Source of the DNA: Sunxiuqinia sp.
Lineage (GTDB): Bacteria; Bacteroidota; Bacteroidia; Bacteroidales; Prolixibacteraceae
Length of the DNA: 64,000 nt
Direction of reading: 5' to 3'
NCBI GenBank assembly: GCA_965230765.1
Contig: CBDDLR010000001.1
Location: 2,696,515-2,760,514 of the forward strand
In this document: in pieces, positions 42,421 through 59,610 of the stretch
How positions within the stretch are numbered: the first letter of the stretch is position 1
How the letters are laid out: the number at the start of each line of letters is the position of its first letter
Notes under the pieces: generated by a model
What the model was told of the DNA's origin: nothing
Databases searched by the model: none
The model's input: the letters and a program-made list of their open reading frames with translations, nothing else
Translations under genes and position numbers: made by a program

Positions 42421-42551
42421 ACATAACGGCCGCGGATATGTTGCGGCGGGGTTTTATTTGCACTAAAGTTTCATATATTTTTTAAAATTATGTATTGTAT
42501 TGTTAAAATCAAATAGCACCAAACACCCCGCTGAAATATAAAATGTTAGGC
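42421..42551 (-). repeat. attC-like site 8 (family D, AT-rich loop)
   Basis: GCACATAAC(42427)...G(42545)TTAGGCAAA. Confidence 0.82.
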
Positions 42552-44522: not shown

Positions 44523-44547
44523 ATGCAGTATGGGTCTTTTAATTTAC

Positions 44548-44680
44548 GCACAACGGCCGCGGATATGTTGCGGCGGGGTTTTATTTGCACTAAAGTTTCA
44601 TATATTTTTTAAAATTATGTATTGTATTGTTAAAATCAAATAGCACCAAACACCCCGCTGAAATATAAACGATGTTATGG
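44548..44680 (-). repeat. attC-like site 10 (family D)
   Basis: TACGCACAAC(44554)...G(44674)TTATGGTT. Confidence 0.82.
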
Positions 44681-45294
44681 TTAGGCAGGGCAATACGGGC
44701 GTGCTCAGTCATTGTAACAAAACCAGCCTGGCAGTTTGTTTGCCCCTCCCAAGTGATGTGCCAAGTTTGCAAAACCAGTAGTTGCTTACCGCTGTCCCTG
44801 TTTGGTGTTGTTTGCCTTTCCTTAATTTACATATCTTTAAGCAACAATACCTGTCCCAGGTTACCCGTTCAGGTAGGGGCAAACATGGCGCAGGAGTTGA
44901 TTAACCGCAAACAAGGTGACAGGCTGTAGATGCTTTTGGGCGTGATTTTATGAAAATTGCTTCCCAATGACCACTAGTCAGGTAGATGTATTACCTGAAA
45001 CTATGTTCCACTTTCACAAGTGCCATTTACAAAAACCAAGCTTTTAAAGAACGCTTTTTTTAATAAACTGAAATGCTGAATTTTGCAGCTTGTGATTTTC
45101 CGGTCAGAAAACACGGACACGTACCAACTTGTCAGGTAACCTTTCCTCTGCGAATCCCTCTCAATCAAACTCTGGTGGGTTGGGGTGTCAATTTGAACAC
45201 TTGGTTTTAAAAATAATTATTTCAAAGAAGAATTGGAAGTGTCCAATTTAGAGAATCGTTCTAAATAATCAGTTTTTTAGAAATAAACCATAAC
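44675..45294. other. ORF-less cassette cargo X' (X body plus the module shared with Y)
   Basis: No credible ORF; near-identical to 59198-59600 over ~400 bp, and to the last ~200 bp of Y. Confidence 0.7.
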
Positions 45295-45420
45295 GTTCAG
45301 TTGTATGTGGTCGGGCGGGATTTCGAAGAGAAATCCAGTCAGACCGGTAGGGGAGTAGCCGGAAGGTTTGACCAGTCAAACCGATAAATGCCCCGCCTGC
45401 CATATTACAATTTGTTATGG
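45288..45420 (-). repeat. attC-like site 11 (family A)
   Basis: AACCATAAC(45294)...G(45414)TTATGGTTT. Confidence 0.85.
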
Positions 45421-45877
45421 TTTGTTTTTTTGTTATCATCTTTTTCAAGTACCGATGAAAAGGAAACGTTCCTTTCAAACGGTGAGCAGTTTTCTGGTTT
45501 TTACAAACCTTTCAAAAAACTGCTTAAACTACACTTTGTTTCAAACTTCGTTTCTTCACTCCCGTCAAAAAGAATGGGGTGCGAAGGGTGTTTATAATGC
45601 AGTGTCAAGTTTTTGCGTTCTTGTCAGATAAGGAAAACAAGCGGACTTGTCAAACAGCAAGACTTTATCAACTTGTAACATTCTGGTCAATAAGCACGGA
45701 CACGTACCAACTTGTCAGGTAACCTTTCCTCTGCGAATCCCTCTCAATCAAACTCTGGTGGGTTGGGGTGTCAATTTGAACACTTGGTTTTAAAAATAAT
45801 TATTTCAAAGAAGAATCGGAAGTGTCCAATTTAGAGAATCGTTCTAAATAATCAGTTTTTTATAAATAAACCATAAC
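45415..45877. other. ORF-less cassette cargo Y, copy 1
   Basis: Close copy at 57361-57825; no credible ORF. Confidence 0.7.
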
Positions 45878-46002
45878 GGTTTGTGCATGTTGTCGTAGCG
45901 GATTTCGGAGCGCGTTCCAGTCCGGTAGGACTGAACGATGATGCGAGAGCCGCAGTTGGCACACCACCAAATCCCGCTATGCAATATGGCACGTTGTTAT
46001 AA
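45871..46002 (-). repeat. attC-like site 12 (family C)
   Basis: AAACCATAAC(45877)...G(45996)TTATAACAC. Confidence 0.82.
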
Positions 46003-46107
46003 CACGTTTTTTTCATTTAAACCATGCACAGATTTCTAATATTATTGTTTTCAATTTTATTCACTAAGTGATAATAAGAATTATAAATTTGAAACTAGGT
46101 TGACTTT

Positions 46108-48999
46108 TCATCGAATAATCTTTTTTGACCAAATAAATCTACCTTTTTTTTCAATCGTCAAAATATTCAAACTTGGAGTTTTACTTATACTTGTAATCCA
46201 TAATAACTCGTTATTAATGCTCTGTTTTAAAGACTTAACCTTACTACCTTTTGTATCCCATAAAGTGATGGTATATATTTCAAACGATGTAGAATTATTC
46301 TTCAGATAAATGTTTTTTTCTGACTGGATCAAACTAAATTTTTTTTCATCTTTTAAACTGACAGAATTTAAACCTGTATTAATATCCTGATATTCACATG
46401 CACCAATGTCTATCACATTGTTAGAAATTCTTGGATTTCCCACAATATCTAGTCTGGGAAATTCAACATCATCGATGAACATATCCCCAGCATCGATACA
46501 GGGAGAACTACTTAAAATATCAAAATCATCAGTTTCATAGCTGAAAAAATGGGGATCATTAAGATAATTATTTGAAAAGATATATTCAGATTGGGATCCA
46601 GAATATTTTTTGAATTCTTGATAGTCGTTTGGTTGGTTGTTGAAAATGATGTTATTTTTTGTAACTACTTTATCTGAAAGGCTAAGATAAATACCGCCGC
46701 CGCCTTCAACAGCAAAATTATTAGTAATTGTATTATTTACAATGTAACATATTGGCGAATTAGATATAAACATGCCTCCTCCCCATTGAGATATCCCTGT
46801 ACCTTGTTTATTGTTGTTTATAACATTATTAACGATAATCAAGGAGTCATTTTCGGAAAAGATACCAGCGCTACCATATTTAGAACTATTGTTAGATATG
46901 TAATTTGAACTAATGGTTAAGTTTGATCCTCTGCTGCTAATTCCGCCTTCACGTTTATTATAGTTATTGTTAATAATATTCCCTAGAATCTTGCCTTTAG
47001 AAGAACGTACAGCGATGGTTCCAGTGGAAGCCACGTTAATAGGTTTAATTGAGAAATAATTATTTTTAGTAACAAAATTATTCATAAAAGAAAAGTCACA
47101 CTGTTCTAAAAATATTGAAGTTCCATATAGTGCACCGTTTTGTAAAAAGCTGCAACTGTCGATTAACATTTCTGAATTAGTAGCGCAAATTGCTCCCCCA
47201 TATTCGGATTTGCAGTTTTTAAAATGACAATTTTTGATTGTCACATTCTTTGAATCAATACATGTAATACCCCCAGCATATCTATCGTCATAGTAAGTTC
47301 TATTTGTCGTTAAACAATTAGTTATGTTTGAATATTCTATTTTTATACCATTATGATTCTTGATCATAATAGCAGAGTAATAATTATTAGCCCAAGTAGC
47401 ATTATAATTTTTTGTATACTGTATATCTGTATAACTTAAAGTTGACGCGGTCGCCTGATCATAATTTTCGCCAAAAACAAGTCCTTTCCATCCCAGCCAA
47501 TTTAGTTTCTCTGGCTTTAAATCCCAATAGTGGTCAGTACTAATAAAACTGATTCTTTCCGTTGGTGTTCCATTACATAAAAGTTGACCGTTAATATTCA
47601 TTTTCACATCCTTCCCAAAGATTGCTCTTACGCTTGGTTCAACTATCAACTGATTATTTTCCAGAATCTCAATATTATTCTTTATGAGATATGGCGATTT
47701 TTCTTTTGTCCAAATCCCATTTACTGTTTCATCATTGATTTCGGTAACAACTGAAATATAATTTTCATAAATCAACGTATTTTGATTACCGTTGGAGTTT
47801 GTAATTTGTAAGCTAACATCAAATGATCCATTCTGCTGATATGTATGTGATGGATTTTCGTCGGATGAAGTATTGCCATCCCCAAAGTTCCATAAACATG
47901 TGTATTGATCGTTTAAGAAAAAAGAACGATTGCTAAAGGTAACTGTCTCTCCAATTGCTATGTAATTTGTGTCAGCGGAGAAATAAGCCATTGGAATTTT
48001 TTCAAAATCTTCCTGAAAAAAACTGAGAGCACCAATATCAGGAACTGAACCGTCATAATCCTCACCTGAAAATGGATCACCTGCATCTATACATTTGGAC
48101 TTTGAATTATCGTCAATAGGATAACCAGACCAACTCAAATGATAGTCTCCGTTTTCAGGGTCAACGAATAAGGGATCTTCATCGATATTCCCTTCTCCTT
48201 CCCATCCTCCTTCAATATTTGAATATCTAACATTAACCAGGTCATGAACAGTATTTTGTATTATTGATCCTCTATTATTCCTCATAATTGAATTACATAT
48301 TTCTACTTCTCCAAATGAATATTCAATATATATAGCATTACTTTTATTATCAACAATAGTATTGTTCTTTAATGAAAATTTATAATCATTAATAGCATTT
48401 ATTACGATTACTCCATCACGGGAATGAGTATTTTCATTACTATAAAACAAACAATTGTTTACATTGCTCATCCCTTTCAGACTTAAAGGAACTTGGTTAT
48501 CATGAAACACAGAGTTATTAACTTGAAGTGTTGCTCCATCTATTGAAAAACCCAATTGACAATTTGTAAAAACACAACTATCAATTACAACATCATGTCT
48601 TGCATAAATTGAGGCGATGCTATCTACTTTGCAATATTTAAACGAACTAGCAAGTTTCTCATTCTTATATTGAGGATAAGACAAGTAAATTGGTTGATAA
48701 TTCCATTTGCCTCCTCCTTTAAATTCAATGTGTTGTGATTGCGTGCCTTCAGCACTAATTCTTCCATCGACCAATAAGTAAGCTTTATCTTGAAAAATGA
48801 TTTTACAACCAGCTTCAATTATTAAGACCGAATCTTTTGGAACAGTAATAAATTTATTAATAATGTATGGCGAAGACTCTTTCGTTAAATTACCGTATAA
48901 AATATCATTCTCAATAATAGTTTGACATTGAATAGGGTTGAAAGAGATATTAAATAATAATAACGCAATAGTGCACAAGGTATAATTTTTATTAGTCAT
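46108..48999 (-). CDS. Secreted right-handed beta-helix + PKD protein with probable T9SS C-terminal domain (cassette)
   Basis: Signal peptide; N/I-rich pectin-lyase-like repeats; WNFGDGNTSSDENPSHTY (PKD); SPCIDAG/DIGAxEY; ends WSKKIIR. Confidence 0.7.
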   Translation of the reverse strand: MTNKNYTLCTIALLLFNISFNPIQCQTIIENDILYGNLTKESSPYIINKFITVPKDSVLIIEAGCKIIFQDKAYLLVDGRISAEGTQSQHIEFKGGGKWNYQPIYLSYPQYKNEKLASSFKYCKVDSIASIYARHDVVIDSCVFTNCQLGFSIDGATLQVNNSVFHDNQVPLSLKGMSNVNNCLFYSNENTHSRDGVIVINAINDYKFSLKNNTIVDNKSNAIYIEYSFGEVEICNSIMRNNRGSIIQNTVHDLVNVRYSNIEGGWEGEGNIDEDPLFVDPENGDYHLSWSGYPIDDNSKSKCIDAGDPFSGEDYDGSVPDIGALSFFQEDFEKIPMAYFSADTNYIAIGETVTFSNRSFFLNDQYTCLWNFGDGNTSSDENPSHTYQQNGSFDVSLQITNSNGNQNTLIYENYISVVTEINDETVNGIWTKEKSPYLIKNNIEILENNQLIVEPSVRAIFGKDVKMNINGQLLCNGTPTERISFISTDHYWDLKPEKLNWLGWKGLVFGENYDQATASTLSYTDIQYTKNYNATWANNYYSAIMIKNHNGIKIEYSNITNCLTTNRTYYDDRYAGGITCIDSKNVTIKNCHFKNCKSEYGGAICATNSEMLIDSCSFLQNGALYGTSIFLEQCDFSFMNNFVTKNNYFSIKPINVASTGTIAVRSSKGKILGNIINNNYNKREGGISSRGSNLTISSNYISNNSSKYGSAGIFSENDSLIIVNNVINNNKQGTGISQWGGGMFISNSPICYIVNNTITNNFAVEGGGGIYLSLSDKVVTKNNIIFNNQPNDYQEFKKYSGSQSEYIFSNNYLNDPHFFSYETDDFDILSSSPCIDAGDMFIDDVEFPRLDIVGNPRISNNVIDIGACEYQDINTGLNSVSLKDEKKFSLIQSEKNIYLKNNSTSFEIYTITLWDTKGSKVKSLKQSINNELLWITSISKTPSLNILTIEKKGRFIWSKKIIR

Positions 49000-49024
49000 A
49001 GTCTCATTGATATTTTAAAATGTG

Positions 49025-49156
49025 TTATAACGGTCAGTTGTATGTGGTCGGGCGGGATTTCGTGCAGAAATCCTGTCAGACCGGTAGGAGAGTAGCCAGA
49101 AGGTTTGACTTGTCAAACCGCTAAAACCCCCGCCTGCCATATACAATTTGTTGTGC
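49025..49156 (-). repeat. attC-like site 13 (family A)
   Basis: GTGTTATAAC(49031)...G(49150)TTGTGCAAC. Confidence 0.85.
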
Positions 49157-49163
49157 AACGTAA

Positions 49164-50345
49164 TTATTTAATCTCTTTTGTATATGAATCAATCACCTCA
49201 AATACTTTATGGTCTGATTCGTAAACTTTTTTAAATATCTCCCGTGACTTCTCAAAGTTGTCTTTAGAGTTTTTAAAAGCCTCTTTGTCATATTGAATCA
49301 CAGCTGTATAAAAATATATGTTACCATCTACTTTATTGTCAGTTTGGTATTTATCATGTTGTGATGCCAAGAAAGTTAGTAATTCATCAATCTTTTCATT
49401 ATTCCAATACATTTTCATTAAATCCTGATATATCGTTGGATTTCCTGGTGCAATTGAAAAAAACTGATTTGTCCTATCAAGATAGTTTTCCTTGTCTAAA
49501 GAAATCTCCAAATCAAGTAGAGGTTTTAATGTATAATAATCATTAGGTTGAATTTTATCTGCTTGTTTATAAAAGTCAATTGAGTTATCGAAATCCTCAA
49601 GTTCTCGATACATAACTGCAATCATTCTAGCAGCATCCGCTTTATACTGAGGATAATCATACAAATTCATTGCTACTTTAGCACTCTCAATCCCTTTTTC
49701 TCGCTGGTCGTCATACAAATATGCATATGCAAGGTTATAATAACTTGATGGGTAATCTTTTTTTAATTCTGTCGATTTTTCCAAATAAGGTATCGCGGAC
49801 TTATAATCTTGTTGCATTAAATATGCATATCCTAATCCATATGCCGACCAGTAATCATAAATCCCGTTGTCATAAGCAATCTTGTAATTATCAAAGAATC
49901 GCTTTATCACAATTGAATCAGGCTCTAACCAGTTCTGCTGATATTTTAAATGTACCTCATGATAATAATAGCCAAGTGATTTTCTCAAATTGTAGTTGTC
50001 AGGGTATTTGTAAATTAGAGGATTTAAAATAGAATCGGGCGCAAAAGTAAACATTGCAAAACTTCCATTACTTCCACGAATATCCATAACATCTTGGTCT
50101 TGCTCTAAATCTGTTAATGCGAACATTTTATGCATTATACTAGTAACAAAGTATTTTAAATACAAGTCCGTTTTGGCAATGACAATATCTGGATTTTCAT
50201 TTCTCGGGTCTGCATCATTTAATACTTTAATTGCAGATTCATACTTTTTATTCTCAATCAGCTTATTCGCATCTACAATTGCATCATTCTGAGCAAATGT
50301 TATCCCGAAGGTGAAAATTAAAATCAGTGTAAATGTTTGTTTCAT
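49164..50345 (-). CDS. Secreted TPR protein (cassette)
   Basis: Probable start MKQTF at 50345; YGLGYAYL, YYNLAYAY TPR patterns. Confidence 0.72.
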   Translation of the reverse strand: MKQTFTLILIFTFGITFAQNDAIVDANKLIENKKYESAIKVLNDADPRNENPDIVIAKTDLYLKYFVTSIMHKMFALTDLEQDQDVMDIRGSNGSFAMFTFAPDSILNPLIYKYPDNYNLRKSLGYYYHEVHLKYQQNWLEPDSIVIKRFFDNYKIAYDNGIYDYWSAYGLGYAYLMQQDYKSAIPYLEKSTELKKDYPSSYYNLAYAYLYDDQREKGIESAKVAMNLYDYPQYKADAARMIAVMYRELEDFDNSIDFYKQADKIQPNDYYTLKPLLDLEISLDKENYLDRTNQFFSIAPGNPTIYQDLMKMYWNNEKIDELLTFLASQHDKYQTDNKVDGNIYFYTAVIQYDKEAFKNSKDNFEKSREIFKKVYESDHKVFEVIDSYTKEIK

Positions 50346-50368
50346 GTTATTTCGATTCTGTTTATGTT

Positions 50369-50500
50369 GCACAACGGTGGCGGTATGAAATGTTGCGCAT
50401 TTCGAAGCACAAACTTATCAGCCCACTAAGTCGTTGATTAAATGTTATTTCGTTTAAATTTAGCACAATCTGCGCAATGTTTTATGACCGCGTGTTAGGC
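50369..50500 (-). repeat. attC-like site 14 (family E, unique)
   Basis: GTTGCACAAC(50375)...G(50494)TTAGGCATA; arms GCGGTATGAAATGTTGCGCA / TGCGCAATGTTTTATGACCGC. Confidence 0.8.
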
Positions 50501-50507
50501 ATAGTAC

Positions 50508-51878
50508 TTATTTTAGAATTTTCAGAAATGGGAAAAAGATATTTAAAGCAAGACCTCCAATTATAATTATTAAGAATACACTGATAATTCCTGATTTAAG
50601 ACCAAACCGTGGTAAAAGATTTTTTAATGAAAAACTTCTCACTTTAGGTTCTGGAGGATTCCATTCTGGTAATATATTTTTAGGTATTGTAACTTCTAAA
50701 TCACCAATTACTAATAGGGGTACTAAAAATTCAAATTCAAGCTGGTCATTTTGTTGTTCTAGACCAAGTAATTTCCGTCTTGACCCTAAATTATCAGTCC
50801 AAAGTCGAAAATAATATTTTCTATCCCAAATATTTAATCTGTTAAATTCATTGTATTTGCGGAGAATTGCAGTCTTTTCTGTACTAAGGTTTTTTGATGA
50901 TATGCTGTCAGAAAGTTCAAATGTGCTAAAATATAACGGTTCTGCAGAACCAGCAAAAGTATTTATATTTATTTCCTTTTTTCTGGGCACTTTAGGGTTA
51001 TAGTGCTTACAAAAAATACCTCCTACAGCAATCATTGGTTTTGGTGACTTAATATTTTCGTGTTTTATATACCATGGAGATGCGTTTGGATTAATCTCAA
51101 AAGAAATGGTCAAATCTCGATAAAATTGGTCATCATTCTCATCGAGATGTGGAAATTCATTGATACTAACCAGTCCTCTCCCTGCACCATACCAAGCAGC
51201 GGGAAAAAGCTTCATATTTCTCTCTTCTTCTGTTGGCTTAATAATATCTTTGTTAGATGTTGGAGAAATCTTAACTAAAACGTTAAATGTTGTTAACCAT
51301 AAATCAATTAAAAGTGTTTTAGAAACTGCATTTCCTGTCAAAGTATCAATTTCGATTATTTGCTTTTGGTATGTCTTATATGGCTTATTTTCTTTGTCCT
51401 TACTTTTTGAGAAAAGTCTCTTAAAACTACTTTCTTCCGGAGTGTAATATTCTACGGGACCAACTGTAACATTAACGTTTGGTAGTCCATAATATTCATG
51501 ATCAGGGTCAAATCCTATTTCATTACAATCATATCTGTAAACATTGCAATTTTCAAAACCTTTCTCACCTCTATGAGATTTATTAAAAAATTTTCTATTA
51601 AAATACTTAATACCAGCTATCTTCACTTCGGCTCCTTCAAAGTTTGTTATCTTGCAAACATCAAAGTCTCCCATTTCTCCAGTAAATTCAAGTTGAAATT
51701 CTTGAGATAATTCTTTCGTTACCTTATTATATTCCCTTTTTACCGAATCCTGATATTCGGAAAGGTATAATATATAGTTTGGATTATCTTTCTTCTTTGA
51801 AAGGTTGTCAAAGTCTCGAAACATACCAATTAACCAAATAATTGATAATGGGATAATAATAAAATAACTTTTTTTCAT
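50508..51878 (-). CDS. Hypothetical membrane-anchored protein (N- and C-terminal TM)
   Basis: 456 aa; hydrophobic ends. Confidence 0.6.
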   Translation of the reverse strand: MKKSYFIIIPLSIIWLIGMFRDFDNLSKKKDNPNYILYLSEYQDSVKREYNKVTKELSQEFQLEFTGEMGDFDVCKITNFEGAEVKIAGIKYFNRKFFNKSHRGEKGFENCNVYRYDCNEIGFDPDHEYYGLPNVNVTVGPVEYYTPEESSFKRLFSKSKDKENKPYKTYQKQIIEIDTLTGNAVSKTLLIDLWLTTFNVLVKISPTSNKDIIKPTEEERNMKLFPAAWYGAGRGLVSINEFPHLDENDDQFYRDLTISFEINPNASPWYIKHENIKSPKPMIAVGGIFCKHYNPKVPRKKEININTFAGSAEPLYFSTFELSDSISSKNLSTEKTAILRKYNEFNRLNIWDRKYYFRLWTDNLGSRRKLLGLEQQNDQLEFEFLVPLLVIGDLEVTIPKNILPEWNPPEPKVRSFSLKNLLPRFGLKSGIISVFLIIIIGGLALNIFFPFLKILK

Positions 51879-51907
51879 TTTGATTAGGTTTAGTTTATCT
51901 TAAAATC

Positions 51908-52351
51908 TTAGATTAATCTTCTCACTCCAAGAATTCTGTTTTTATCATAAGGGCTTATATTTACTTCATCAGATTGGTTACCCCCTAAAATATAAACATA
52001 ATTTTCATCTAAGCCAGCAAATAACCCAACATGTCCAGGTGCATCAATAATTTCAGGTCCTGGCTGTTCACCTTGCCCTCGCTTAAGAATGACGACATCA
52101 TTTTCTGGTTTTGCTGAATCAAGTTTAATTACTTGACCTACTTTGAGCCAAGAACGAGCTCTCAAAGATTTTGAACGAGGCAATCTTAATTGCCAAGCAA
52201 TATAATTAATAAACGCTGAACACCATGGAACATGGTCTCCCTCTGGCCAAGAACTATCTAATTTCAGCATTTTTAATATTGTCTCATTTGAAGCTATTCC
52301 TTCAACTTCTTCTAATCCAATATATCGGCTTGCAAGTTCATATAGTTTCAT
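51908..52351 (-). CDS. TIGR02594-family protein (NlpC/P60-like Cys-His hydrolase)
   Basis: VPWCSAFIN, RARSWL, GHVGLFAG, LGGNQSDEV. Confidence 0.8.
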   Translation of the reverse strand: MKLYELASRYIGLEEVEGIASNETILKMLKLDSSWPEGDHVPWCSAFINYIAWQLRLPRSKSLRARSWLKVGQVIKLDSAKPENDVVILKRGQGEQPGPEIIDAPGHVGLFAGLDENYVYILGGNQSDEVNISPYDKNRILGVRRLI

Positions 52352-52430
52352 ATTTTTTTGAATTAAAATTATTAAACCTTAACTAAATTTTCACCTTTTC
52401 TATTTGTAGTTTCATCTCGGCGTGTATTAT

Positions 52431-52562
52431 GCCTAACGGTTGGTGTAAGTTTTTGTAGCGGATTCAGAGCGATCGTCAGCGTCTGTTAGGACGGGACGTT
52501 CGAAAAAGAATTCGCTGCCAGGGCTGCACCAACCCCGCTATAAAATTTACACTTTGTTACCG
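52431..52562 (-). repeat. attC-like site 15 (family C)
   Basis: TATGCCTAAC(52437)...G(52556)TTACCGCCA. Confidence 0.82.
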
Positions 52563-52610
52563 CCAGTATTTTCATTATAGTCGTTAGTCTTTTATCGTTT
52601 ACAATCAGTT

Positions 52611-53444
52611 TTAGTAATTAAAATATAAAAATCTAATAAGTTCTCCTGTTTGAGTGTCAATACAAACGAGAACATCGTCAAATCTGGATAGGACTTCCCA
52701 GCATTCTCTTAATTCTAATTTATTCTCGAGTTTATAGGGAACAAGAATTTTATTGAATTTATCTGAATCATCAATGTTTATGTCTAGCGGCATTAATTCA
52801 TTGTAATTTTCGACAATATAATTGATTGCAATTTCAAAAGCTTTCTTAGCGTTTATTATTTCATTCTTTGGGACAAAAGCTTCTCTAAACCAGTTTCCTG
52901 ATATTTCAAGAACTGATTCCTTCTGATTAAAATGAAAAATAATAGGAGCATTTATAATACGGTAGTTTCCTAATTGTTCCTGTTCCAAATAAAACTCTAA
53001 TTTATTTGCCCATAATTCATGGTCAAAATAATCATCCAATGAAGAGTAATATCCACTTGATAGACGTATGTAAATTTGCTCATTAAATAAAATGTCTTTA
53101 GATTTCTCAATACCTAAATAATCTTTGTAATAGGAAACAAAATCAGAGATGTTTTTTATAATAAAATCTTTATCTATTTCATTTATAAAATCAATCGGGA
53201 TTTTCCCATGAACAAATCCAAATTGGTTTATCACTAGATTCTCATGTTGATTGATTAAATTAAATTGTTCTATTTTTTCTTTTATTTCTGTTTTATTTAA
53301 ACTATAAATCGTAAATGGATAATTAATATCAGGAAGAGGAATTTCGTCTTTGTTTTTTCTGCATGCTTGTCCTAAAATCAATAAAATTGAAAGTATTGGA
53401 ATAAGATATTTTTTTATAATTGTCATCATTTTATCTTCATTCAA
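52611..53444 (-). CDS. Hypothetical lipoprotein (cassette)
   Basis: ILGQAC lipobox; PepSY-like end (CIDTQTGE). Confidence 0.6.
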   Translation of the reverse strand: MNEDKMMTIIKKYLIPILSILLILGQACRKNKDEIPLPDINYPFTIYSLNKTEIKEKIEQFNLINQHENLVINQFGFVHGKIPIDFINEIDKDFIIKNISDFVSYYKDYLGIEKSKDILFNEQIYIRLSSGYYSSLDDYFDHELWANKLEFYLEQEQLGNYRIINAPIIFHFNQKESVLEISGNWFREAFVPKNEIINAKKAFEIAINYIVENYNELMPLDINIDDSDKFNKILVPYKLENKLELRECWEVLSRFDDVLVCIDTQTGELIRFLYFNY

Positions 53445-53448
53445 TTGG

Positions 53449-53581
53449 CGGTAACGGTTGGTGTAAGTTTTTGTAGCGGATTCAAGGCGATCGTCAGCGT
53501 CCGGTAGGACGGGACGGTCAATAGAGAATCCGCCGCCAGCGATGCCACCAAAACCGCTATTAAATTTACACTGTGTTGTGT
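53449..53581 (-). repeat. attC-like site 16 (family C)
   Basis: TGGCGGTAAC(53455)...G(53575)TTGTGTTTA. Confidence 0.82.
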
Positions 53582-53624
53582 TTAGTTTTTTATTTAAATC
53601 TATTCAAAGTCAGTTAATTATTTA

Positions 53625-54179
53625 TCAAATCCATGCTGTTCCATTTGCTACTAAATATATCAATCCCCACCATAGCCCATGATAAATTATTCCAATGATA
53701 GCTGATTTTATCAAATCGAGTTTAAATAATCTATAAAATCCAAGTATCTCAATTGCCAACCCTACAATAATCCCAATATTTGAAAGGCTTGGAACAGCCG
53801 AAACTATTAATCCAATCGTTGCAAAAGTCTCAATCTGTTTAGCCTTTAACACATTATCAAGTTCAGTTTTTAAAATCGGTGTGGCAATATATCGTAGGTA
53901 CAAATGAAGTATCGCTCCTTTAAAATGAACAATTAGTAATCCAAAAAGCGGCGTAATCAATAATCCAATTGCGATATATAACAAGTACATCCAAGGTTCA
54001 TAGAAATTGTTAGTCTGGTTTAATGTTCTAACAATCACAGTAAATCCTGATAATACTGATGCCACAAAAACTAAACTTTTGTCATTGTCAAGATTGTCAA
54101 TTGGCTTGTAAAATGGATTTCTTATAAAATCGTAAATTATTATCAGCGAATCGTTTACCCTCTCTTTAAAATTGTTCAT
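53625..54179 (-). CDS. Hypothetical multi-pass membrane protein (cassette)
   Basis: 184 aa, about 5 hydrophobic segments. Confidence 0.6.
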   Translation of the reverse strand: MNNFKERVNDSLIIIYDFIRNPFYKPIDNLDNDKSLVFVASVLSGFTVIVRTLNQTNNFYEPWMYLLYIAIGLLITPLFGLLIVHFKGAILHLYLRYIATPILKTELDNVLKAKQIETFATIGLIVSAVPSLSNIGIIVGLAIEILGFYRLFKLDLIKSAIIGIIYHGLWWGLIYLVANGTAWI

Positions 54180-54256
54180 TAATCAATTTTTTTGTTTAAT
54201 AAATCTTTAATCATATATCTTTATTTAAATCATGTTTGCTCGTTTTCCAAAATTAA

Positions 54257-54388
54257 ACACAACGTTCAGTTGTATGTGGTCGGGCGGGATTTCGTGCAGA
54301 AATCCAGTCAGACCCGCAGGAAAGTGGGCGCTAGGTCTGACTTGTCAGACCGCCAAGCACCCCGCCTGCCATATACAATTTGTTAACG
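54257..54388 (-). repeat. attC-like site 17 (family A)
   Basis: TAAACACAAC(54263)...G(54382)TTAACGCC. Confidence 0.85.
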
Positions 54389-54407
54389 CCTGGTTTTTTC
54401 TTTTTTA

Positions 54408-55073
54408 TCATTGTATCATTACTAAAAATCCATTTTTTCTAAATTTTGATAGTTTAAATTTTGATGGTTTATTTCTTTCAAAAATATAGTCATTGTCGTT
54501 TAAAGAGTAATACTTTACTTTGTCTGGTTCATATTTGTTTGGAACGATTTTTATGAATTTCCCTAATTGAATATCAGAACAAAAATGTATTACATAATTG
54601 TCCAAAAACACAATAAAATTATTGACAATACCCTTAATTTGTTTAATCTGCTTCAAAAATATTGTGAATTCTAAATCTCCATCTTTAATTGTCAATTTCG
54701 ATTTTTCTTGGAAATAGATTTTTTTGAATGGTAGTAAATATTCGTTTATGGTCTGAATACTGTTTTCGCTATCCAGAACTTTTATTTTACGATAAAATTT
54801 TGAAAAGAAAATAATTAACTCCAAGGCGATGCTTTGTGCATCTTCATTCTGGTAGTTAAAAGAATAAACTTTTTTGTTGAAGTCATTTTCGTGATTTTTT
54901 TTCTTGGCTTCAAATATTTCTGTAATTACTAAAACAGAATAACTAAAATCAAATCCGGGATTAGAGATTTGCTTTAAAACAGATTTCTCAGTTTTGTCAT
55001 ACTTTTTATATTCTCGCAGAAACTCTGCACGAGAAACAACAAAGGAGATATTCTTATGTACTATTATTGGCAT
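54408..55073 (-). CDS. Hypothetical protein (second gene of a two-gene cassette)
   Basis: 221 aa ORF. Confidence 0.55.
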   Translation of the reverse strand: MPIIVHKNISFVVSRAEFLREYKKYDKTEKSVLKQISNPGFDFSYSVLVITEIFEAKKKNHENDFNKKVYSFNYQNEDAQSIALELIIFFSKFYRKIKVLDSENSIQTINEYLLPFKKIYFQEKSKLTIKDGDLEFTIFLKQIKQIKGIVNNFIVFLDNYVIHFCSDIQLGKFIKIVPNKYEPDKVKYYSLNDNDYIFERNKPSKFKLSKFRKNGFLVMIQ

Positions 55074-55099
55074 TAAATTATTTTAGTGTTTTCGTTGTT

Positions 55100-55570
55100 T
55101 TAGTTGACTTCCCACTCATTATATTTTTTCAACTCTTCAATGAATTCCTTGCCAGTAATTTTTAAATGGTTTTCAATGAATTTTTTTCTTTTGTCCATTG
55201 GAATAGTGACGAGGAGATTATAAATACCTTCACATATTTCATCATACCTTTCCTGCATTTGAGAAACACTATTGTTAATATCGGCTTGTAAAACTTCTCT
55301 AATGTATGGCTCGGCATTTTCCGCAAATTCTTTTTTGTTTTTTTCAATGTAGTTTTCCAAGTTTAACTGCATTGTTTCAGTACGGACATCAACAAATTTT
55401 TTTAATTCGTCAATGCTGAATATTTCCATAAATGACTTCATCTTTTCATTAATGTTGTCTTGGGATTTTAGGCGTTGTTTTATTACAGTATTTGACCAAA
55501 CTACAAAAGTTATTAAAATCAAGTACAGTATAATTTGGGCAATTGCGATTATGATTTGGTTATCAGTCAT
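55100..55570 (-). CDS. Hypothetical protein with N-terminal TM (first gene of a two-gene cassette)
   Basis: 156 aa; hydrophobic N-terminus, helical remainder. Confidence 0.6.
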   Translation of the reverse strand: MTDNQIIIAIAQIILYLILITFVVWSNTVIKQRLKSQDNINEKMKSFMEIFSIDELKKFVDVRTETMQLNLENYIEKNKKEFAENAEPYIREVLQADINNSVSQMQERYDEICEGIYNLLVTIPMDKRKKFIENHLKITGKEFIEELKKYNEWEVN

Positions 55571-55601
55571 TTTGTATCTGTTTATTCGTCTTTAAACTTG
55601 G

Positions 55602-55733
55602 CGTTAACGTTCAGTTGTATGTGGTCGGGCGGGATTTCGTGCAGAAATCCAGTCAGACCGGTAGGAGAGTAGCCGGAAGGTTTGACTTGTTAAACCGATA
55701 AATGCCCCGCCTGCCATATACAATTTGTTAGCG
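55602..55733 (-). repeat. attC-like site 18 (family A)
   Basis: GGCGTTAAC(55608)...G(55727)TTAGCGCG. Confidence 0.85.
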
Positions 55734-55738
55734 CGTCG

Positions 55739-56245
55739 TTATTTTTCTTTTTTATTAATTCTCAATAGTCGTAAAATAAAGTTTATGTTGGTAATCATTA
55801 AGTATCCAAGTAAAATATTTAATCCATTTACAATCCAATTCCAATTGAAATTTGAAGTCATATTTTGTGAATTTATATCCGAATAAAATGCACTAAAGGT
55901 TTGATTTATAAAAATTGGAATGTTGTCAATAATTAAAAAGCCTCCAATTATGAAGATTGCAATTTTTACAATCTCAGTTGTGGACAAATTTCCCAATTCA
56001 ATTTTGTCATTGTCAAAACCTTTTTCGAGTTTTAGTATCCTAACAACATGATGAGATTTAAAAATCAAAAAAATAAAAAGTGCAATGAGTATTCCTAAAA
56101 TCATCACCAAATAAATAATGGATATAAGCCCAATTTCCATAAAAACAAAGGAAAAATTACTTGGCAATGTGACAAATAATGCAGTGATTATCGAGTAAAG
56201 TCCAAAGAGTTTTATTATCAGAATAAAGAAGTCCTTTTTAGTCAT
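55739..56245 (-). CDS. Hypothetical 4-TM membrane protein (cassette)
   Basis: 168 aa, hydrophobic. Confidence 0.6.
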   Translation of the reverse strand: MTKKDFFILIIKLFGLYSIITALFVTLPSNFSFVFMEIGLISIIYLVMILGILIALFIFLIFKSHHVVRILKLEKGFDNDKIELGNLSTTEIVKIAIFIIGGFLIIDNIPIFINQTFSAFYSDINSQNMTSNFNWNWIVNGLNILLGYLMITNINFILRLLRINKKEK

Positions 56246-56445
56246 AAATCTGGTTTTATTGTTTGTAATTCTGACTAACGTTAAAGTTAGTCTTTGATTA
56301 TCAGTGTTTTATATTTTGCTCAAAATTGTCATTTTCTTTACATTTTTGCTACCCACTTTACGTTAGCAACCGGATTTAATATGCTCTGGAAAAATAGATA
56401 ATTTACTTTTAAATCTATTTCGGAAGTGCTTATGTGGGGAATGCG

Positions 56446-56577
56446 CGCTAACGGTCACTTGTATGTGGTCGGGCGGGATTTCGAAGAGAAATCCTGTCAG
56501 ACCCGCAGGAAAGTGGGTGAAAGATCTGACTTGTCAGACCGCCAAGCACCCCGCCTGCCATATACAATTTGTTACCA
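56446..56577 (-). repeat. attC-like site 19 (family A)
   Basis: CGCGCTAAC(56452)...G(56571)TTACCAGTA. Confidence 0.85.
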
Positions 56578-56581
56578 GTAG

Positions 56582-57217
56582 TTATTTATTTTTTAAACAC
56601 TTTATAATTTCTTTATTTTCTTTTTCGCTAAACTGAAAATCTTCGATTTGAAATTCGCTTAAAACTGGATAAGTTTTGTTCAATTTGGCAAAAGACATGC
56701 TGTAATAAGCAATTACCAAGTCATTTCCTTTTTCAGATTCGACTGTTTTTATTGCATCGTTAAGCTTGCTTTCTGTCCATCCATTGTCCAGGTAAAGCTT
56801 TTTCTTGAGATTAAATTCAGATTTTGTTTTATTTATTTTTTTCTTGTCCTGCGAAAGTGTGTAAGTTGTTTTTGATGGCATCCCACATTCAATATCTGCA
56901 TTTTCTTTCCCGTCGGAATCCAAGAAATATGCAACAATTGTTGTGTCATTAGGGTATTCAAATTTAATCCATACACTCAAATAGCACAAATGGCTATATT
57001 TTAAACTCCCATCTTTATAAAATTTGAGTTCAGTCACTCTCCCATTATTATCTATAGTTTCCTCTACGTATTTTTTTGGTAAATTATTCTTGTCAACATT
57101 CCATTCTTTTACATGTATATCTGATGCGGTATTGTAGTACTCATGAAATATTATTTTTTGTCCATAACAATTAATATTTAAGAAGAGTAGGATGAATAAG
57201 ATTAGTCTAAGTTTCAT
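56582..57217 (-). CDS. Hypothetical secreted protein (cassette)
   Basis: 211 aa with signal peptide. Confidence 0.6.
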   Translation of the reverse strand: MKLRLILFILLFLNINCYGQKIIFHEYYNTASDIHVKEWNVDKNNLPKKYVEETIDNNGRVTELKFYKDGSLKYSHLCYLSVWIKFEYPNDTTIVAYFLDSDGKENADIECGMPSKTTYTLSQDKKKINKTKSEFNLKKKLYLDNGWTESKLNDAIKTVESEKGNDLVIAYYSMSFAKLNKTYPVLSEFQIEDFQFSEKENKEIIKCLKNK

Positions 57218-57233
57218 GTCTTTTTATAATTAC

Positions 57234-57366
57234 TGGTAACGTTCAGTTGTATGTGGTCGGGCGGGATTTCGTGCAGAAATCCTGTCAGACCGGTAGGAGA
57301 GTAGCTGGAAGGTTTGACATGTCAAACCGATAAATGCCCCGCCTGCCATATTACAATTTGTTATGG
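57234..57366 (-). repeat. attC-like site 20 (family A)
   Basis: TACTGGTAAC(57240)...G(57360)TTATGGTTT. Confidence 0.85.
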
Positions 57367-57825
57367 TTTGTTTTTTCGTTATCATCTTTTTCAAGTACCG
57401 ATGAAATGGGAACGTACCTTTCAAACGGTGAGCAGCTTTCTGGTTTTTAAATATTTTTCAAAAAGCTGCTTAAACTACACTTTGTTTCAAACTTCGTTCC
57501 TTCACTCCCGTCAAAAAAGATTGGGGTGCGAAGGATGTTTATAATGCAGTGTCAAGTTTTTGCTTTCTTGTCAGACCAGGAAAACAAGCGGACTGGTCAA
57601 AAAGCAAAACTTTATCAACTTGTAACATTCCAGTCAGAAAAGCACGGACACGTACCAACTTGTCAGGTAACCTTTCCTCTGCGAATCCCTCTCAATCAAA
57701 CTCTGGTGGGTTGGGGTGTCAATTTGAACACTTGGTTTTAAAAATAATTATTTCAAAGAAGAATCGGAAGTGTCCAATTTAGAGAATCGTTCTAAATAAT
57801 CAGTTTTTTAGAAATAAACCATAAC
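57361..57825. other. ORF-less cassette cargo Y, copy 2
   Basis: Close copy of 45415-45877. Confidence 0.7.
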
Positions 57826-57951
57826 GGTCACTTGTAAGTTGTCGTTGCGGATTATGGTGAGCGTCAGCGTCCGGTAGGACCTGACTGCGATACGAGAATC
57901 CGGCGAACAACGCTGCACTACACCCGCAATGCAATTTACAATTTGTTATGT
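57819..57951 (-). repeat. attC-like site 21 (family C)
   Basis: AAACCATAAC(57825)...G(57945)TTATGTAGC. Confidence 0.82.
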
Positions 57952-57968
57952 AGCGATTTTTTATGTTT

Positions 57969-59051
57969 CTATTCCATATATCCATTTAAATATAAAACTG
58001 TTACAGTAATAAGTGGTATTATAAATGTCAAAATCCATACGAAAAGGAACAAAACTTTTCCTCCTATTTTTATGTCTTTAGTCGGTTGTCTTTGAACCAC
58101 TTGTTTCATTACATCAATTATGCGATTCTCAGCAGGAATTGGGCGATATCGTTTAGGTTCCACCATATTTGAAATAACTTTAATATTTACCGCTATTTCA
58201 TCTCGAAGTGTCCAATATTCCTCATTTGATAACTCGTTAAAGTCTCTGTCAATGTTAAATCCTTTATTTTTGATATAAGTTTTGAAATTCCTCATTTCTG
58301 TCTGGTTTTTTATTTGCATGAAAAGAAAAAATGGAATTACCAATAAAATGTAAGATTCCAGTTTTAATGCAATCAGACTTATGATGATTATCGAAATCCA
58401 GACGAATACAATATTTATCTTATCGTTGTTTTGGAAAAACATGTTTTTTATAATTTGTCCTCCGTCTAAAGGCAATACTGGCAAAAGATTAAATAAATTT
58501 AGAAATATAAATATTGCCCCAGTTTTCCATAAAAAATCGTTTTCGTTTACCAAGCTTAGGGCTATTAAACCAGAGCCTATTAATACTCCTGGCAATGGTC
58601 CTGCAAGTGAGTTTATTGTTTTTTGTTTTTGAGAAATTTCATCTTTTTGTCCAGATGCAAGTGCTCCGATTAATGGTATGAAAAAAATACTCAAGTCTTT
58701 GTATTTGTAAAATCTCATTGCCAAGAAATGACCGAGTTCATGAATTAAAATGACTCCTGTAAGTATGAGTATATATTGTAAGTCCCATTTAAAAATGAAG
58801 TAAAAGGCTGCGATAAATAATACAAAACTGATTAAGGATTTTTTTGTCGATTGTTTCCTTTCGTCTGGAATTGGTTTTTCTGGGAACTCAGGTTCAACAT
58901 TAAAAGATTGATTTTTCTTTCTTTTCTTTATTTCGTTTTCGGCTTCCAATAATGCATCACTTTCCAAACTGTCAGGATTTTCTTTCAGAATTTCCTCCAG
59001 TTGAGCATCTGTTTTCATGTCCATTATTTTCTCCCAATTATATGCTGCCAT
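57969..59051 (-). CDS. Site-2 protease (M50) family metalloprotease (cassette)
   Basis: IHELGH, LAGPLPG, NLFNLLPVLPLDGG. Confidence 0.88.
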   Translation of the reverse strand: MAAYNWEKIMDMKTDAQLEEILKENPDSLESDALLEAENEIKKRKKNQSFNVEPEFPEKPIPDERKQSTKKSLISFVLFIAAFYFIFKWDLQYILILTGVILIHELGHFLAMRFYKYKDLSIFFIPLIGALASGQKDEISQKQKTINSLAGPLPGVLIGSGLIALSLVNENDFLWKTGAIFIFLNLFNLLPVLPLDGGQIIKNMFFQNNDKINIVFVWISIIIISLIALKLESYILLVIPFFLFMQIKNQTEMRNFKTYIKNKGFNIDRDFNELSNEEYWTLRDEIAVNIKVISNMVEPKRYRPIPAENRIIDVMKQVVQRQPTKDIKIGGKVLFLFVWILTFIIPLITVTVLYLNGYME

Positions 59052-59070
59052 GTTCTTCTTTTAAATTGCT

Positions 59071-59203
59071 ACATAACGGCCGCGGATATGTTGCGGCGGG
59101 GTTTTATTTGCACTAAAGTTTCATATATTTTTTAAAATTATGTATTGTATTGTTAAAATCAAATAGCACCAAACACCCCGCTGAAATATAAACGATGTTA
59201 TGG
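59071..59203 (-). repeat. attC-like site 22 (family D, same as site 10)
   Basis: GCTACATAAC(59077)...G(59197)TTATGGTTA. Confidence 0.82.
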
Positions 59204-59610
59204 TTAGGCAGGGCAATACGGGCGTGCTCAGTCATTGTAACAAAACCAGCCTGGCAGTTTGTTTGCCCCTCCCAAGTGATGTGCCAAGTTTGCAAAACCA
59301 GTTGTTGCTTACCGCTGTCCCTGTTTGGTGTTGTTTGCCTTTCCTTAATTTACATATCTTTAAGCAACAATACCTGTCCCAGGTTACCCGTTCAGGTAGG
59401 GGCAAACATGGCGCAGGAGTTGATTAACCGCAAACAAGGTGACAGGCTGTAGATGCTTTTGGGCGTGATTTTATGAAAATTGCTTTCCAATGACCACTAG
59501 TCAGGTAGATGTATTACCTGAAACTATGTTCCACTTTCACAAGTGCCATTTACAAAAACCAAGCTTTTAAAGAACGCTTTTTTTAATAAACTGAAATGCT
59601 TAACCATAAC
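59198..59610. other. ORF-less cassette cargo X
   Basis: Near-identical to 44675-45078; flanks GTTATGGTTA / TAACCATAAC. Confidence 0.7.

What the first reader, a model, noticed from the sequence alone, without database searches (positions are those of the whole stretch)
44554..59609. Four ORF-less cassettes of two types, duplicated and modular
Y occurs twice (45415-45877, 57361-57825) and X twice (59198-59610; 44675-45294, extended by the ~200 bp module that ends Y). All use the GTTATGGTT/AACCATAAC box, each type keeps its own attC, and no credible ORF is present. Y has iterated TGTCA motifs (three TGTCAA, i.e. TTGACA on the coding strand) and X has a TCAGGTA-n7-TACCTGA hairpin. They are the only repeated cargo in the array and are spaced through it, as expected for internal promoter cassettes, sRNA genes or recombinase-binding elements.
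Basis: partly seen in the sequence, partly recalled or inferred. Interest (0 to 1): 0.66.

Follow-up and report, generated by a model that had tools for sequence, protein, structure and literature searches.

The report
Multi-copy gene-less cassettes; one conserved hairpin
The four ORF-less units are real mobile cassettes of a huge integron-like gene array in a Bacteroidota genome, belong to two non-coding families present in 21 and 25 copies, and one family carries a folded nucleic-acid element that is conserved with compensatory base changes in four genera and matches no known RNA family.

Summary
Observation confirmed and extended. The window lies in an integron-like array of at least 164 kb and about 129 attC-type sites, with cassettes on the minus strand. 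X (532 nt) and Y (583 nt) are precisely bounded cassettes. Genome-wide there are 21 X copies (98.9-100% identical) and 25 Y copies (92-98%), about a third of all cassettes. Identical copies sit between different neighbours, so they move as single cassettes. The "extended" X (44554-45293) is a unique Y::X fusion made by a deletion at a 7-nt microhomology.

No conserved ORF, protein homologue or Rfam match was found for either family.

New result: X has homologues in four other genomes of three other genera (15, 15, 2 and 1 copies). They share only a ~205-nt core, a long irregular hairpin with an invariant internal loop. Compensatory changes support it (7-9 pairs; 0 of 500 shuffles reach this). 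G-U pairs and folding z-scores (-3.2 to -3.7 against about -1.7) favour the window's + strand, antisense to the cassette genes.

X is therefore most likely a structured RNA, or a single-stranded-DNA element. Y has no homologue or supported fold and stays unresolved.

Amplified non-coding cassettes are known from Vibrio; the conserved fold is new.

The parts
44554..45293 (-). Cassette X1: the only chimeric copy. It joins the first ~215 nt of a Y cassette (Z module) to X from its position 9 onward, and keeps the X-type attC.
   Evidence: The junction lies at the shared 7-nt AGCATTT, found in Y allele b and at X positions 9-15.
44552..44676 (-). X-type attC of X1: 125 nt from AAC to GTT, with an AT-rich centre.
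   Evidence: There are 22 copies in the genome, 21 of them attached to X.
44723..44927 (+). Conserved folded core of X1 (helices P1, P1b, P2, P4 and an invariant internal loop).
45078..45285 (-). Z module inside X1. It is the most conserved part of Y and shows no excess folding.
   Evidence: (family D2).
45294..45876 (-). Cassette Y1 (583 nt): Z module, a YTGAC-rich variable middle, a hairpin-rich 3' part and a D1-type attC (45292-45416).
57240..57824 (-). Cassette Y2 with a D1-type attC (57238-57362).
59078..59609 (-). Cassette X2 (532 nt), the standard form of X, with the X-type attC at 59076-59200.
   Evidence: Five other copies are 100% identical to it.
59246..59450 (+). Conserved folded core of X2.
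44978..44998 (.). It lies outside the conserved core and is absent from X homologues in other genera.

Best explanation
X and Y are two families of non-coding cassettes in a Bacteroidota-type integron-like array. Each has its own attC-type hairpin site and a 9-nt end box. The array's site-specific recombination has copied each family many times: 21 X and 25 Y, about one cassette in three.

In X, selection preserves a ~205-nt irregular hairpin. It consists of helices P1, P1b, P2 and P4 around an invariant internal loop, and is topped by a variable ~135-nt domain. The fold forms best on the window's + strand, opposite to the cassette genes. I read it as a small structured non-coding RNA gene carried as cassette cargo. 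Its target is unknown; it most plausibly acts on the cassette system or its neighbours.

Y is specific to this genome among those searched. It has a strongly conserved, unstructured 5' module, one-strand YTGAC repeats and no supported fold. It is most plausibly a protein-binding or promoter-type regulatory cassette, or simply a successful passenger.

The extended X1 is a by-product: a deletion between a Y and the following X at a 7-nt microhomology.

Shown: cassette anatomy, copy numbers, movement as single cassettes, absence of coding signal, and the conserved covarying fold. Inferred: that the fold acts as RNA, which strand is used, and any function of Y.
For: **Cassette anatomy**
- Every cassette's 5' end is complementary over 9 nt to its own attC box.
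- attC lengths are 122-125 nt.
- X and Y boxes occur only at their own ends.

**Copy number and mobility**
- Five identical Y copies and six identical X copies lie between different neighbours.

**No coding signal**
- Open frames differ between Y copies, and 1-nt indels occur.
- The spacer inside the X core is 5, 6 or 7 nt in different genera.
- No protein homologue exists among 5.8 billion proteins, no paralogue in the genome and no Pfam match.

**Composition**
- GC is 0.43 for X and 0.38 for Y, against about 0.30 for coding cassettes.

**X homologues**
- Five of 335 genomes of the family, in four genera, hold 21, 15, 15, 2 and 1 copies.
- Only blocks are shared; the rest cannot be aligned.

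**Fold**
- 95.7% of cells are paired and 7 pairs changed on both sides; 0 of 500 shuffles reach this, and slid controls give at most 2.
- RNAalifold finds the same helices on its own, with 9 double changes.

**Strand**
- G-U pairs fill 14 cells (4 columns) on + against 1 on -.
- Core folding z-scores are -3.7, -3.3 and -3.2 on + against -1.8, -1.7 and -1.5 on - in three of four lineages.

**Y**
- The Z module is unusually conserved: 10 variable sites in columns 61-180, against about 28 if variable sites were evenly spread.
- YTGAC is enriched and kept in nearly all copies.
Against:
- No convincing promoter lies upstream of the core on the + strand in any lineage, and the attC sequences upstream differ between genera.
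- The strand call rests on 4 columns against 1, which is not significant on its own. In G017 both strands fold alike.
- Only five lineages are available, two of them close, and I derived the structure from the same sequences.
- RNA and single-stranded DNA folds cannot be told apart by sequence (also stated in PMC5737381).
- This genome's X lacks the 5' half of a further hairpin (P6) that the other genera have.
- For Y, covariation analysis gave almost only one-sided changes and breaks, and no homologue exists to test constraint.
Confidence: 0.5

Rival explanations
1. The X hairpin works as single-stranded DNA. It forms on the same strand as the recombinogenic (bottom) strand of the attC sites. 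It helps the cassette itself, for example as an accessory site for the recombinase or a host protein, or as a priming signal on the excised circle. That would make X a hyper-mobile, self-amplifying cassette.
For: - The better-folding strand is the + strand. This is the strand opposite the cassette genes and lies directly 3' of X's own attC on that strand.
- No promoter is needed, and none was found.
- X is multi-copy in four of five genomes, tandem in G523, and occupies the first two positions next to the recombinase gene in G017.
- X and Y, unrelated in content, share the same 9-nt end box, which no other cassette uses.
- ssDNA and RNA motifs cannot be separated by sequence (PMC5737381).
Against: - A G-T wobble kept in all five lineages (columns 37/195) fits RNA better than DNA.
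- No known integron cassette uses an accessory hairpin.
- The own attC differs between genera while the core is kept. The core is therefore not tied to one site.
- In the second array of this genome the first cassette is a coding one.
Confidence: 0.2
2. X and Y are promoter cassettes like the gene-less cassettes of Vibrio superintegrons. They carry sense or antisense promoters that switch on, or dampen, neighbouring cassettes far from the array's own promoter.
For: - Most of 29 gene-less Vibrio cassettes tested had sense-strand promoter activity (PMC11014356).
- The Z module of Y holds a TGGACA-18-AATAAT match on the cassette strand, and X1 kept exactly this module.
- Z is conserved but shows no excess folding.
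- About 43 copies are scattered through 164 kb.
Against: - There is no exact match to the Bacteroidota -33 TTTG / -7 TAnnTTTG pattern in Y. X has only one-mismatch matches, 2 per strand against 0.46 per 560 nt in random genome segments, too few to weigh.
- Sigma-70-type hexamers are not what the main Bacteroidota sigma factor reads (general knowledge).
- A promoter does not explain a 31-pair covarying hairpin in X.
- Placement of the copies is no different from random.
- Promoter prediction was shown to be unreliable for such cassettes (PMC11014356).
Confidence: 0.15
3. X and Y are functionless passengers that spread only because their attC sites and shared end box recombine efficiently. The apparent conservation reflects recent spread and gene conversion.
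For: - X copies are 98.9-100% identical, which suggests a recent burst.
- Y shows mosaic variation typical of gene conversion.
- Boucher et al. proposed selfish elements as one reading of paralogous non-coding Vibrio cassettes (PMC1382264).
- Y has no homologue anywhere searched.
Against: - Across genera the X core blocks are identical (24 of 24 nt) while the rest of the cassette cannot be aligned and the attC is replaced. This is a signature of selection on the core, not of recency.
- Compensatory changes keep the helices.
- Variation within Y is strongly uneven.
Confidence: 0.1
4. X or Y encodes a small protein that was missed.
For: Stop-free stretches of up to 85 codons (X, + strand) and 87 codons (Y) exist.
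Against: - The frames are not kept between Y copies.
- The X frame stops right after the conserved block in other genera, and the spacer length varies by 1-2 nt.
- No homologue and no Pfam match were found.
Confidence: 0.03

Closest known systems
Paralogous non-coding cassettes of Vibrio chromosomal integrons (Boucher et al. 2006, PMC1382264)
   Same: Both are cassettes without an ORF or BLASTX match. Both are highly repeated within one array (45 and 34 copies of one family in two V. vulnificus strains). Both have close homologues only in related species. The open question is the same: selfish or regulatory.
   Different: The host phylum differs, and the recombinase here is Xer-like and lacks the IntI-specific segment. 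X has a demonstrated covarying fold shared across genera, which was not reported for the Vibrio cassettes in the passages I read.
Gene-less promoter cassettes of Vibrionaceae superintegrons (Blanco et al. 2024, PMC11014356)
   Same: Both are gene-less cassettes interspersed in a very long array where distal cassettes would otherwise be silent.
   Different: Promoter activity is untested here. Gene-less cassettes are a small minority there (9 selected in V. cholerae N16961), but two families make up about a third of the array here. The conserved feature of X is a hairpin, not a promoter.
DUF1874 motif and the attC-matching Transposase-resistance motif (Weinberg et al. 2017, PMC5737381)
   Same: These are multistem motifs with a conserved internal loop, found in integron-like repeated arrangements, for which RNA and ssDNA function cannot be told apart.
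   Different: Those motifs sit between genes like attC sites. The X core is cargo inside a cassette that has a separate attC. No Rfam family matched.
Bacteroidota-type integron-like cassette arrays noted earlier in this scan (e.g. e1-3956843, e1-4155137)
   Same: The ~125-nt hairpin sites and GTTA/TAAC cores are the same, and the recombinase is Xer-like and lacks the integron-integrase hallmark.
   Different: Those notes concern the arrays themselves. None that I saw describes amplified non-coding cassettes or the X core, and a sequence look-up found nothing.

Membership tests
Integron-type gene cassette | Bounded by an imperfect-hairpin attC site with an inverse core ...AAC and a core GTT... 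| tested here: met
   all four units and about 125 others have AAC...GTT sites of 122-125 nt with paired arms. Site families were found by nhmmer.
Integron-type gene cassette | The cassette's first bases are complementary to its own attC inverse core (crossover at G|TT), so the unit can circularise. | tested here: met
   the 9-nt complementarity holds cassette by cassette along the array. X and Y use AACCATAAC/GTTATGGTT.
Integron-type gene cassette | Served by an IntI integrase that carries the IntI-specific additional segment. | tested here: not met
   The only candidate (C2:1083423-1084562, 379 aa) scores 202 bits on TIGR02249 against a cut-off of 265. It matches in two stretches that skip model positions ~180-240. 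Its best family is Xer-like (NF040815, 213.8 against 220).
Integron-type gene cassette | Moves as a unit by site-specific recombination. | tested here: inconclusive
   Indirect only. Identical copies lie between different neighbours, tandem X-X pairs exist, and attC types are exchanged.
Gene-less / non-coding paralogous cassettes (Vibrio type) | No conserved ORF and no protein similarity in any frame. | tested here: met
Gene-less / non-coding paralogous cassettes (Vibrio type) | Several paralogous copies in the same array. | tested here: met
   21 X and 25 Y copies.
Promoter cassette | Measurable promoter activity or mapped transcription starts. | not testable with these tools
Consensus scans were inconclusive.
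Described RNA family (Rfam 15) | Match to a covariance model at its gathering score. | tested here: not met
   No match at gathering score in the window. Nothing credible at E up to 5 in 44400-46100. Nothing at E up to 1 in the homologues of four other genomes.
Structured non-coding RNA (generic criteria) | Helices kept by compensatory changes across lineages. | tested here: met
   X core only. Y: not met.
Structured non-coding RNA (generic criteria) | Folding energy below that of shuffled sequence. | tested here: met
   X core on the + strand: z = -3.7, -3.3, -3.2 and -1.4. The whole X content gives z about 0. The Z module of Y gives z of 0 or above.
Structured non-coding RNA (generic criteria) | A transcript of defined ends exists. 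| not testable with these tools
MITE / transposon-derived repeat | Terminal inverted repeats with a target-site duplication, inserted at many kinds of sites. | tested here: not met
   The 9-nt inverted ends are the attC boxes that every cassette has. All 46 copies lie in cassette arrays at G|TT junctions, and none lies elsewhere in the genome.

The most novel reading that the evidence does not exclude
The X core is a device that serves the cassette itself. It would be a folded strand (ssDNA or RNA) that recruits the Xer-like recombinase or a host factor, or primes synthesis on the excised circle, and so drives its own amplification. That would be the first known cassette cargo whose function is cassette mobility. 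It would explain why one non-coding family reaches 15-21 copies in several genera and sits first after the recombinase gene in one of them.
Probability: 0.2. Interest if true: 0.8.

Novelty: new variant of a known kind. Interest (0 to 1): 0.58.

Why it matters
Very large cassette arrays are thought to be mostly silent stores of genes. Why a third or more of some arrays consists of repeated non-coding cassettes has been open since 2006: are they selfish or regulatory?

X offers a concrete handle. It is a short element that can be mutated, with defined helices and an invariant loop, and it is conserved across genera. Testing it for RNA production, recombinase binding and effect on cassette movement would decide between those readings.

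It also adds a candidate structured RNA or ssDNA class to the little-studied Bacteroidota integron-like system.

Tried and rejected
**Known RNA families and whole-cassette folding**
- Rfam at gathering and permissive thresholds found nothing, on this window and on the homologues.
- Whole-cassette folding z-scores were about 0. This was misleading for X until the core alone was folded.

**Homologue searches that found nothing**
- The 85-aa X frame had no candidate among 5.8 billion proteins.
- Exact 20-mers of X and Y gave nothing in metagenome contigs. In genome contigs there were only two single chance hits in high-GC MAGs.
- Plasmid and phage collections had no match, and viral contigs had none.
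- The X block-1 pattern was absent from 400 sampled genomes of the order.
- The covariance model R1 found only known members in 150 family genomes.
- Y gave only chance matches in 41 relatives, in the four X-bearing genomes and in 335 family genomes. The G474 hit was inspected and is an ordinary intergenic region.

**Ideas tested and dropped**
- Y covariation on both strands showed no compensatory pattern.
- The shared X/Y motif TACCTGAC is not above chance for two ~400-nt sequences.
- X and Y have no similarity elsewhere in the genome or to the attI region.
- The Bacteroidota-type promoter scan found no exact match.
- Pseudogene origin was rejected: tblastn of all frames hits only other X and Y copies.
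- Clustering of X with Y was rejected: 18 adjacent pairs against about 14 expected.

- One call failed on a bad argument.
Full report
**Setting**

The window is C1:2696515-2760514 of a 4.06-Mb, two-contig genome. Its 16S genes carry an exact target of the Cytophaga-Flavobacteria probe CF319a (probe specificity is from my own knowledge). The flanking genes include DUF3857/DUF3858 proteins.

From window position ~29,560 to the end of contig C1 (2,726,078-2,890,159, 164 kb) I mapped about 129 attC-type sites. I used iterative nhmmer with 13 seed sites plus a structure-based scan. A second array of 15 sites lies on contig C2 (1,086,773-1,110,143).

Almost every unit holds one or more minus-strand ORFs that take up most of its length, with GC about 0.30. 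Site lengths are 122-125 nt. Each cassette's first 9 nt are complementary to the inverse core of its own site, so the crossover is at G|TT as in integrons.

The only candidate recombinase sits next to the C2 array and points the same way as the cassettes. It is Xer-like:
- 202 bits on the integron-integrase model against a cut-off of 265;
- two matched stretches that skip the IntI-specific part;
- best match to the XerA-type model.

Earlier notes of this scan describe the same Bacteroidota-type system in other genomes. I checked only the recombinase and site features here.

**The observation**

The four units are real, and their limits are exact: X1 44554-45293, Y1 45294-45876, Y2 57240-57824, X2 59078-59609. 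The box AACCATAAC/GTTATGGTT occurs eight times in the window, only at their ends. In the array it marks only X and Y.

The orientation is the minus strand. X always keeps the attC on its left (22 copies of that type, 21 with X). Y1 and Y2 share their left attC at about 91%, but their right-hand sites at only 72%.

Genome-wide there are 21 X copies (532-533 nt, 98.9-100% identical, all on C1). There are 25 Y copies (583-585 nt, 92-98% identical; 22 on C1 and 3 on C2). Together they make up 43 of about 129 cassettes of the large array.

**They move as cassettes**

- Six X copies are identical, five Y copies are identical, and several Y pairs are identical or nearly so. The cassettes on either side of them differ.
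- X-X tandems occur four times.
- Seven Y copies carry a different attC family, with the switch just inside the site.
- One X-type attC belongs to a 351-aa coding cassette (window 42422-42548).
- X/Y adjacency (18 pairs) is close to the random expectation of about 14, so the units are scattered rather than placed.

**The extended X**

X1 is the only chimera among the 21 copies. In cassette orientation it starts with the first ~215 nt of a Y (the Z module plus the "allele b" form of Y's variable segment) and continues with X from its position 9. Both parents read AGCATTT at the junction. A deletion between a Y and the following X at this 7-nt microhomology explains it. It removed Y's 3' half, Y's attC and the first 8 nt of X.

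**Not coding**

- Stop-free stretches differ from copy to copy in Y, and 1-nt indels occur.
- All six-frame pieces hit only other X and Y copies in the genome.
- There is no Pfam match.
- The 85-codon X frame has no relative among 5.8 billion proteins.
- In other genera that frame stops right after the conserved block, and a spacer inside the conserved region is 5, 6 or 7 nt long.
- GC is 0.43 (X) and 0.38 (Y) against 0.30 for coding cassettes.

**X has relatives, and a conserved fold**

A BLAST search of 60 relatives gave two 33-nt matches, 662 nt apart, in G017, a genome of another genus. Reading that locus showed two tandem gene-less cassettes with the same attC type and a near-identical end box (GTTATGGTG/CACCATAAC). 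They lie directly after a recombinase gene that is 40% identical to this genome's.

A 25-nt pattern from the shared block, allowing up to 3 mismatches, then found X-like cassettes in 5 of 335 genomes of the family, in four genera:

| Genome | Copies | Arrangement |
|---|---|---|
| G000 (this genome) | 21 | scattered through the array |
| G523 | 15 | mostly tandem, 646-nt spacing |
| G588 | 15 | dispersed among attC sites of the same families as here |
| G017 | 2 | tandem, next to the recombinase gene |
| G647 | 1 | single |

The pattern found none in the 11 other genomes of this genus and none in a 400-genome sample of the order. It found none in viral contigs. BLAST with the X1-Y1 stretch found nothing in the plasmid or phage collections. 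A covariance model added no members in 150 family genomes.

Between genera only blocks are shared, and the own attC is replaced in G523 and G588.

The blocks pair with each other. On the window's + strand:
- P1 is GGGCTG/CAGCCC; this genome has AGCCTG/CAGGCT, which is two compensatory changes.
- P2 is TGTTTGC/GCAAACA, extended by two covarying pairs.
- The internal loop is invariant: CC(C/G)CTCCCAAGTG(A/C) facing GGAGTTGA plus 5-7 nt.
- P4 has 10-14 pairs and occurs in three compensating versions.
- These helices enclose a variable domain of about 135 nt.

On the six-sequence alignment A1, 95.7% of cells pair and 7 pairs changed on both sides. None of 500 shuffles reaches this, and sliding the partners by 1-3 columns gives at most 2 such pairs. 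RNAalifold, run without my structure, returns the same helices with 9 double changes.

Caveats: there are five lineages, two of them close, and I derived the structure from the same sequences. No Rfam family matches any lineage.

**Which strand, and RNA or DNA**

- G-U pairs occupy 14 cells (4 columns) on the + strand against 1 on the minus strand. One U-G is present in all lineages and becomes U-A in 8 of this genome's copies.
- The core folds well below shuffles on the + strand (z = -3.7, -3.3, -3.2). The minus strand gives about -1.7. G017 is alike on both strands.

The + strand is antisense to the cassette genes. By analogy with integrons, it is also the strand whose attC hairpins recombine.

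I found no promoter upstream on that strand, and transcripts could not be checked. I therefore rank a structured RNA first (about 0.5 as part of the overall explanation). An ssDNA element that serves the cassette's own mobility comes second (about 0.2). The two cannot be separated by sequence, as Weinberg et al. also note (PMC5737381).

**Y**

No homologue was found in 41 relatives, in the four X-bearing genomes, or in 335 family genomes at limited sensitivity.

Variation among the 19 distinct copies is uneven. Columns 61-180 (the Z module) have 10 variable sites, against about 28 expected if variable sites were evenly spread. Columns 181-240 hold two diverged alleles.

Predicted pairs vary almost only on one side or break. 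The Z module folds no better than shuffles, while the 3' part holds local hairpins on both strands. YTGAC occurs seven times on the cassette strand and never on the other. It is kept in nearly all copies and is moderately enriched (2 of 300 shuffles).

Y therefore looks constrained in its 5' module, but I cannot say for what. A protein-binding or promoter role and a selfish passenger both remain open.

**Comparison with what is known**

Boucher et al. (PMC1382264) reported that non-coding Vibrio cassettes tend to be paralogous. One family has 45 and 34 copies in two V. vulnificus strains, and such cassettes have close homologues only in related species. They proposed selfish or regulatory roles.

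Blanco et al. (PMC11014356) showed promoter activity in most of 29 gene-less Vibrio cassettes. They also showed that in-silico promoter calls did not predict it.

The present case is the same kind of thing in a different phylum with a different recombinase. What is new is a covarying fold, shared across genera, as the conserved content of one such family.

**Verdict**

- This is a new variant of a known kind, of moderate-to-good interest.

Noticed in passing
window 2143-32203 (C1:2698657-2728717) versus C2:1107504-1138958 and beyond: About 50 kb of C1 is present a second time on contig C2 at ~98% identity (88% in one 9-kb piece). The stretch covers the array's three distal cassettes and its chromosomal flank. 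In both copies the array runs into the same flank. This could be a real large duplication, two arrays, or an assembly of two close variants.
   Followed up: partly
G000 C2:1083423-1084562 (locus L021 1183-2322): The only integrase-like gene next to a cassette array is Xer-like. It has a ~100-aa N-terminal extension, lacks the integron-integrase-specific segment and points the same way as the cassettes. The large C1 array ends at the contig end with no recombinase in view.
   Followed up: partly
window 42422-42548: An X-type attC (98% identical) is attached to a coding cassette, the 351-aa TPR/peptidase-like ORF at 42560-43615. Seven Y copies likewise carry a D6-type rather than a D1-type attC. 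Cargo and recombination site are therefore exchanged between cassettes.
   Followed up: partly
loci L030-L039 (ten genomes of other families of the order): The D1-type attC (~125 nt) recurs at 77-85% identity in ten genomes of other families. G588 has D1- and D6-type sites almost identical to those here. These site families are shared far more widely than the cargo.
   Followed up: no
G000 C2:134448-136501, 282441-285740, 611076-612058; C1:2231041-2232375, 2383049-2383831: Small clusters of 2-3 attC-type sites lie far from both arrays, like integrase-less cassette clusters.
   Followed up: no
G523 C1:6342081-6351834 (loci L059-L077): Thirteen X-like cassettes lie within 10 kb, in tandem runs of 646 nt with two 2477-nt repeats of X plus another unit. 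This is amplification in place, not scattering as in this genome.
   Followed up: no
X homologues, loci L051, L052, L053, L050: Downstream of the core the other genera share a further hairpin, GCCCCAC...GTGGGGC. G017 has the compensated form CGCCCCG...CGGGGCG. A block TTTTAAAGAAC is shared by G523, G588 and this genome. This genome's X keeps only the 3' half of that hairpin (GGGCGTG), so it looks like a shortened derivative.
   Followed up: partly
window 24000-64000: GC skew is negative on the + strand through the array. This fits genes and the leading strand both being on the minus strand. The attC bottom strands and the better-folding strand of X would then lie on the leading-strand template, as reported for Vibrio arrays. 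The skew may only reflect coding-strand bias.
   Followed up: no
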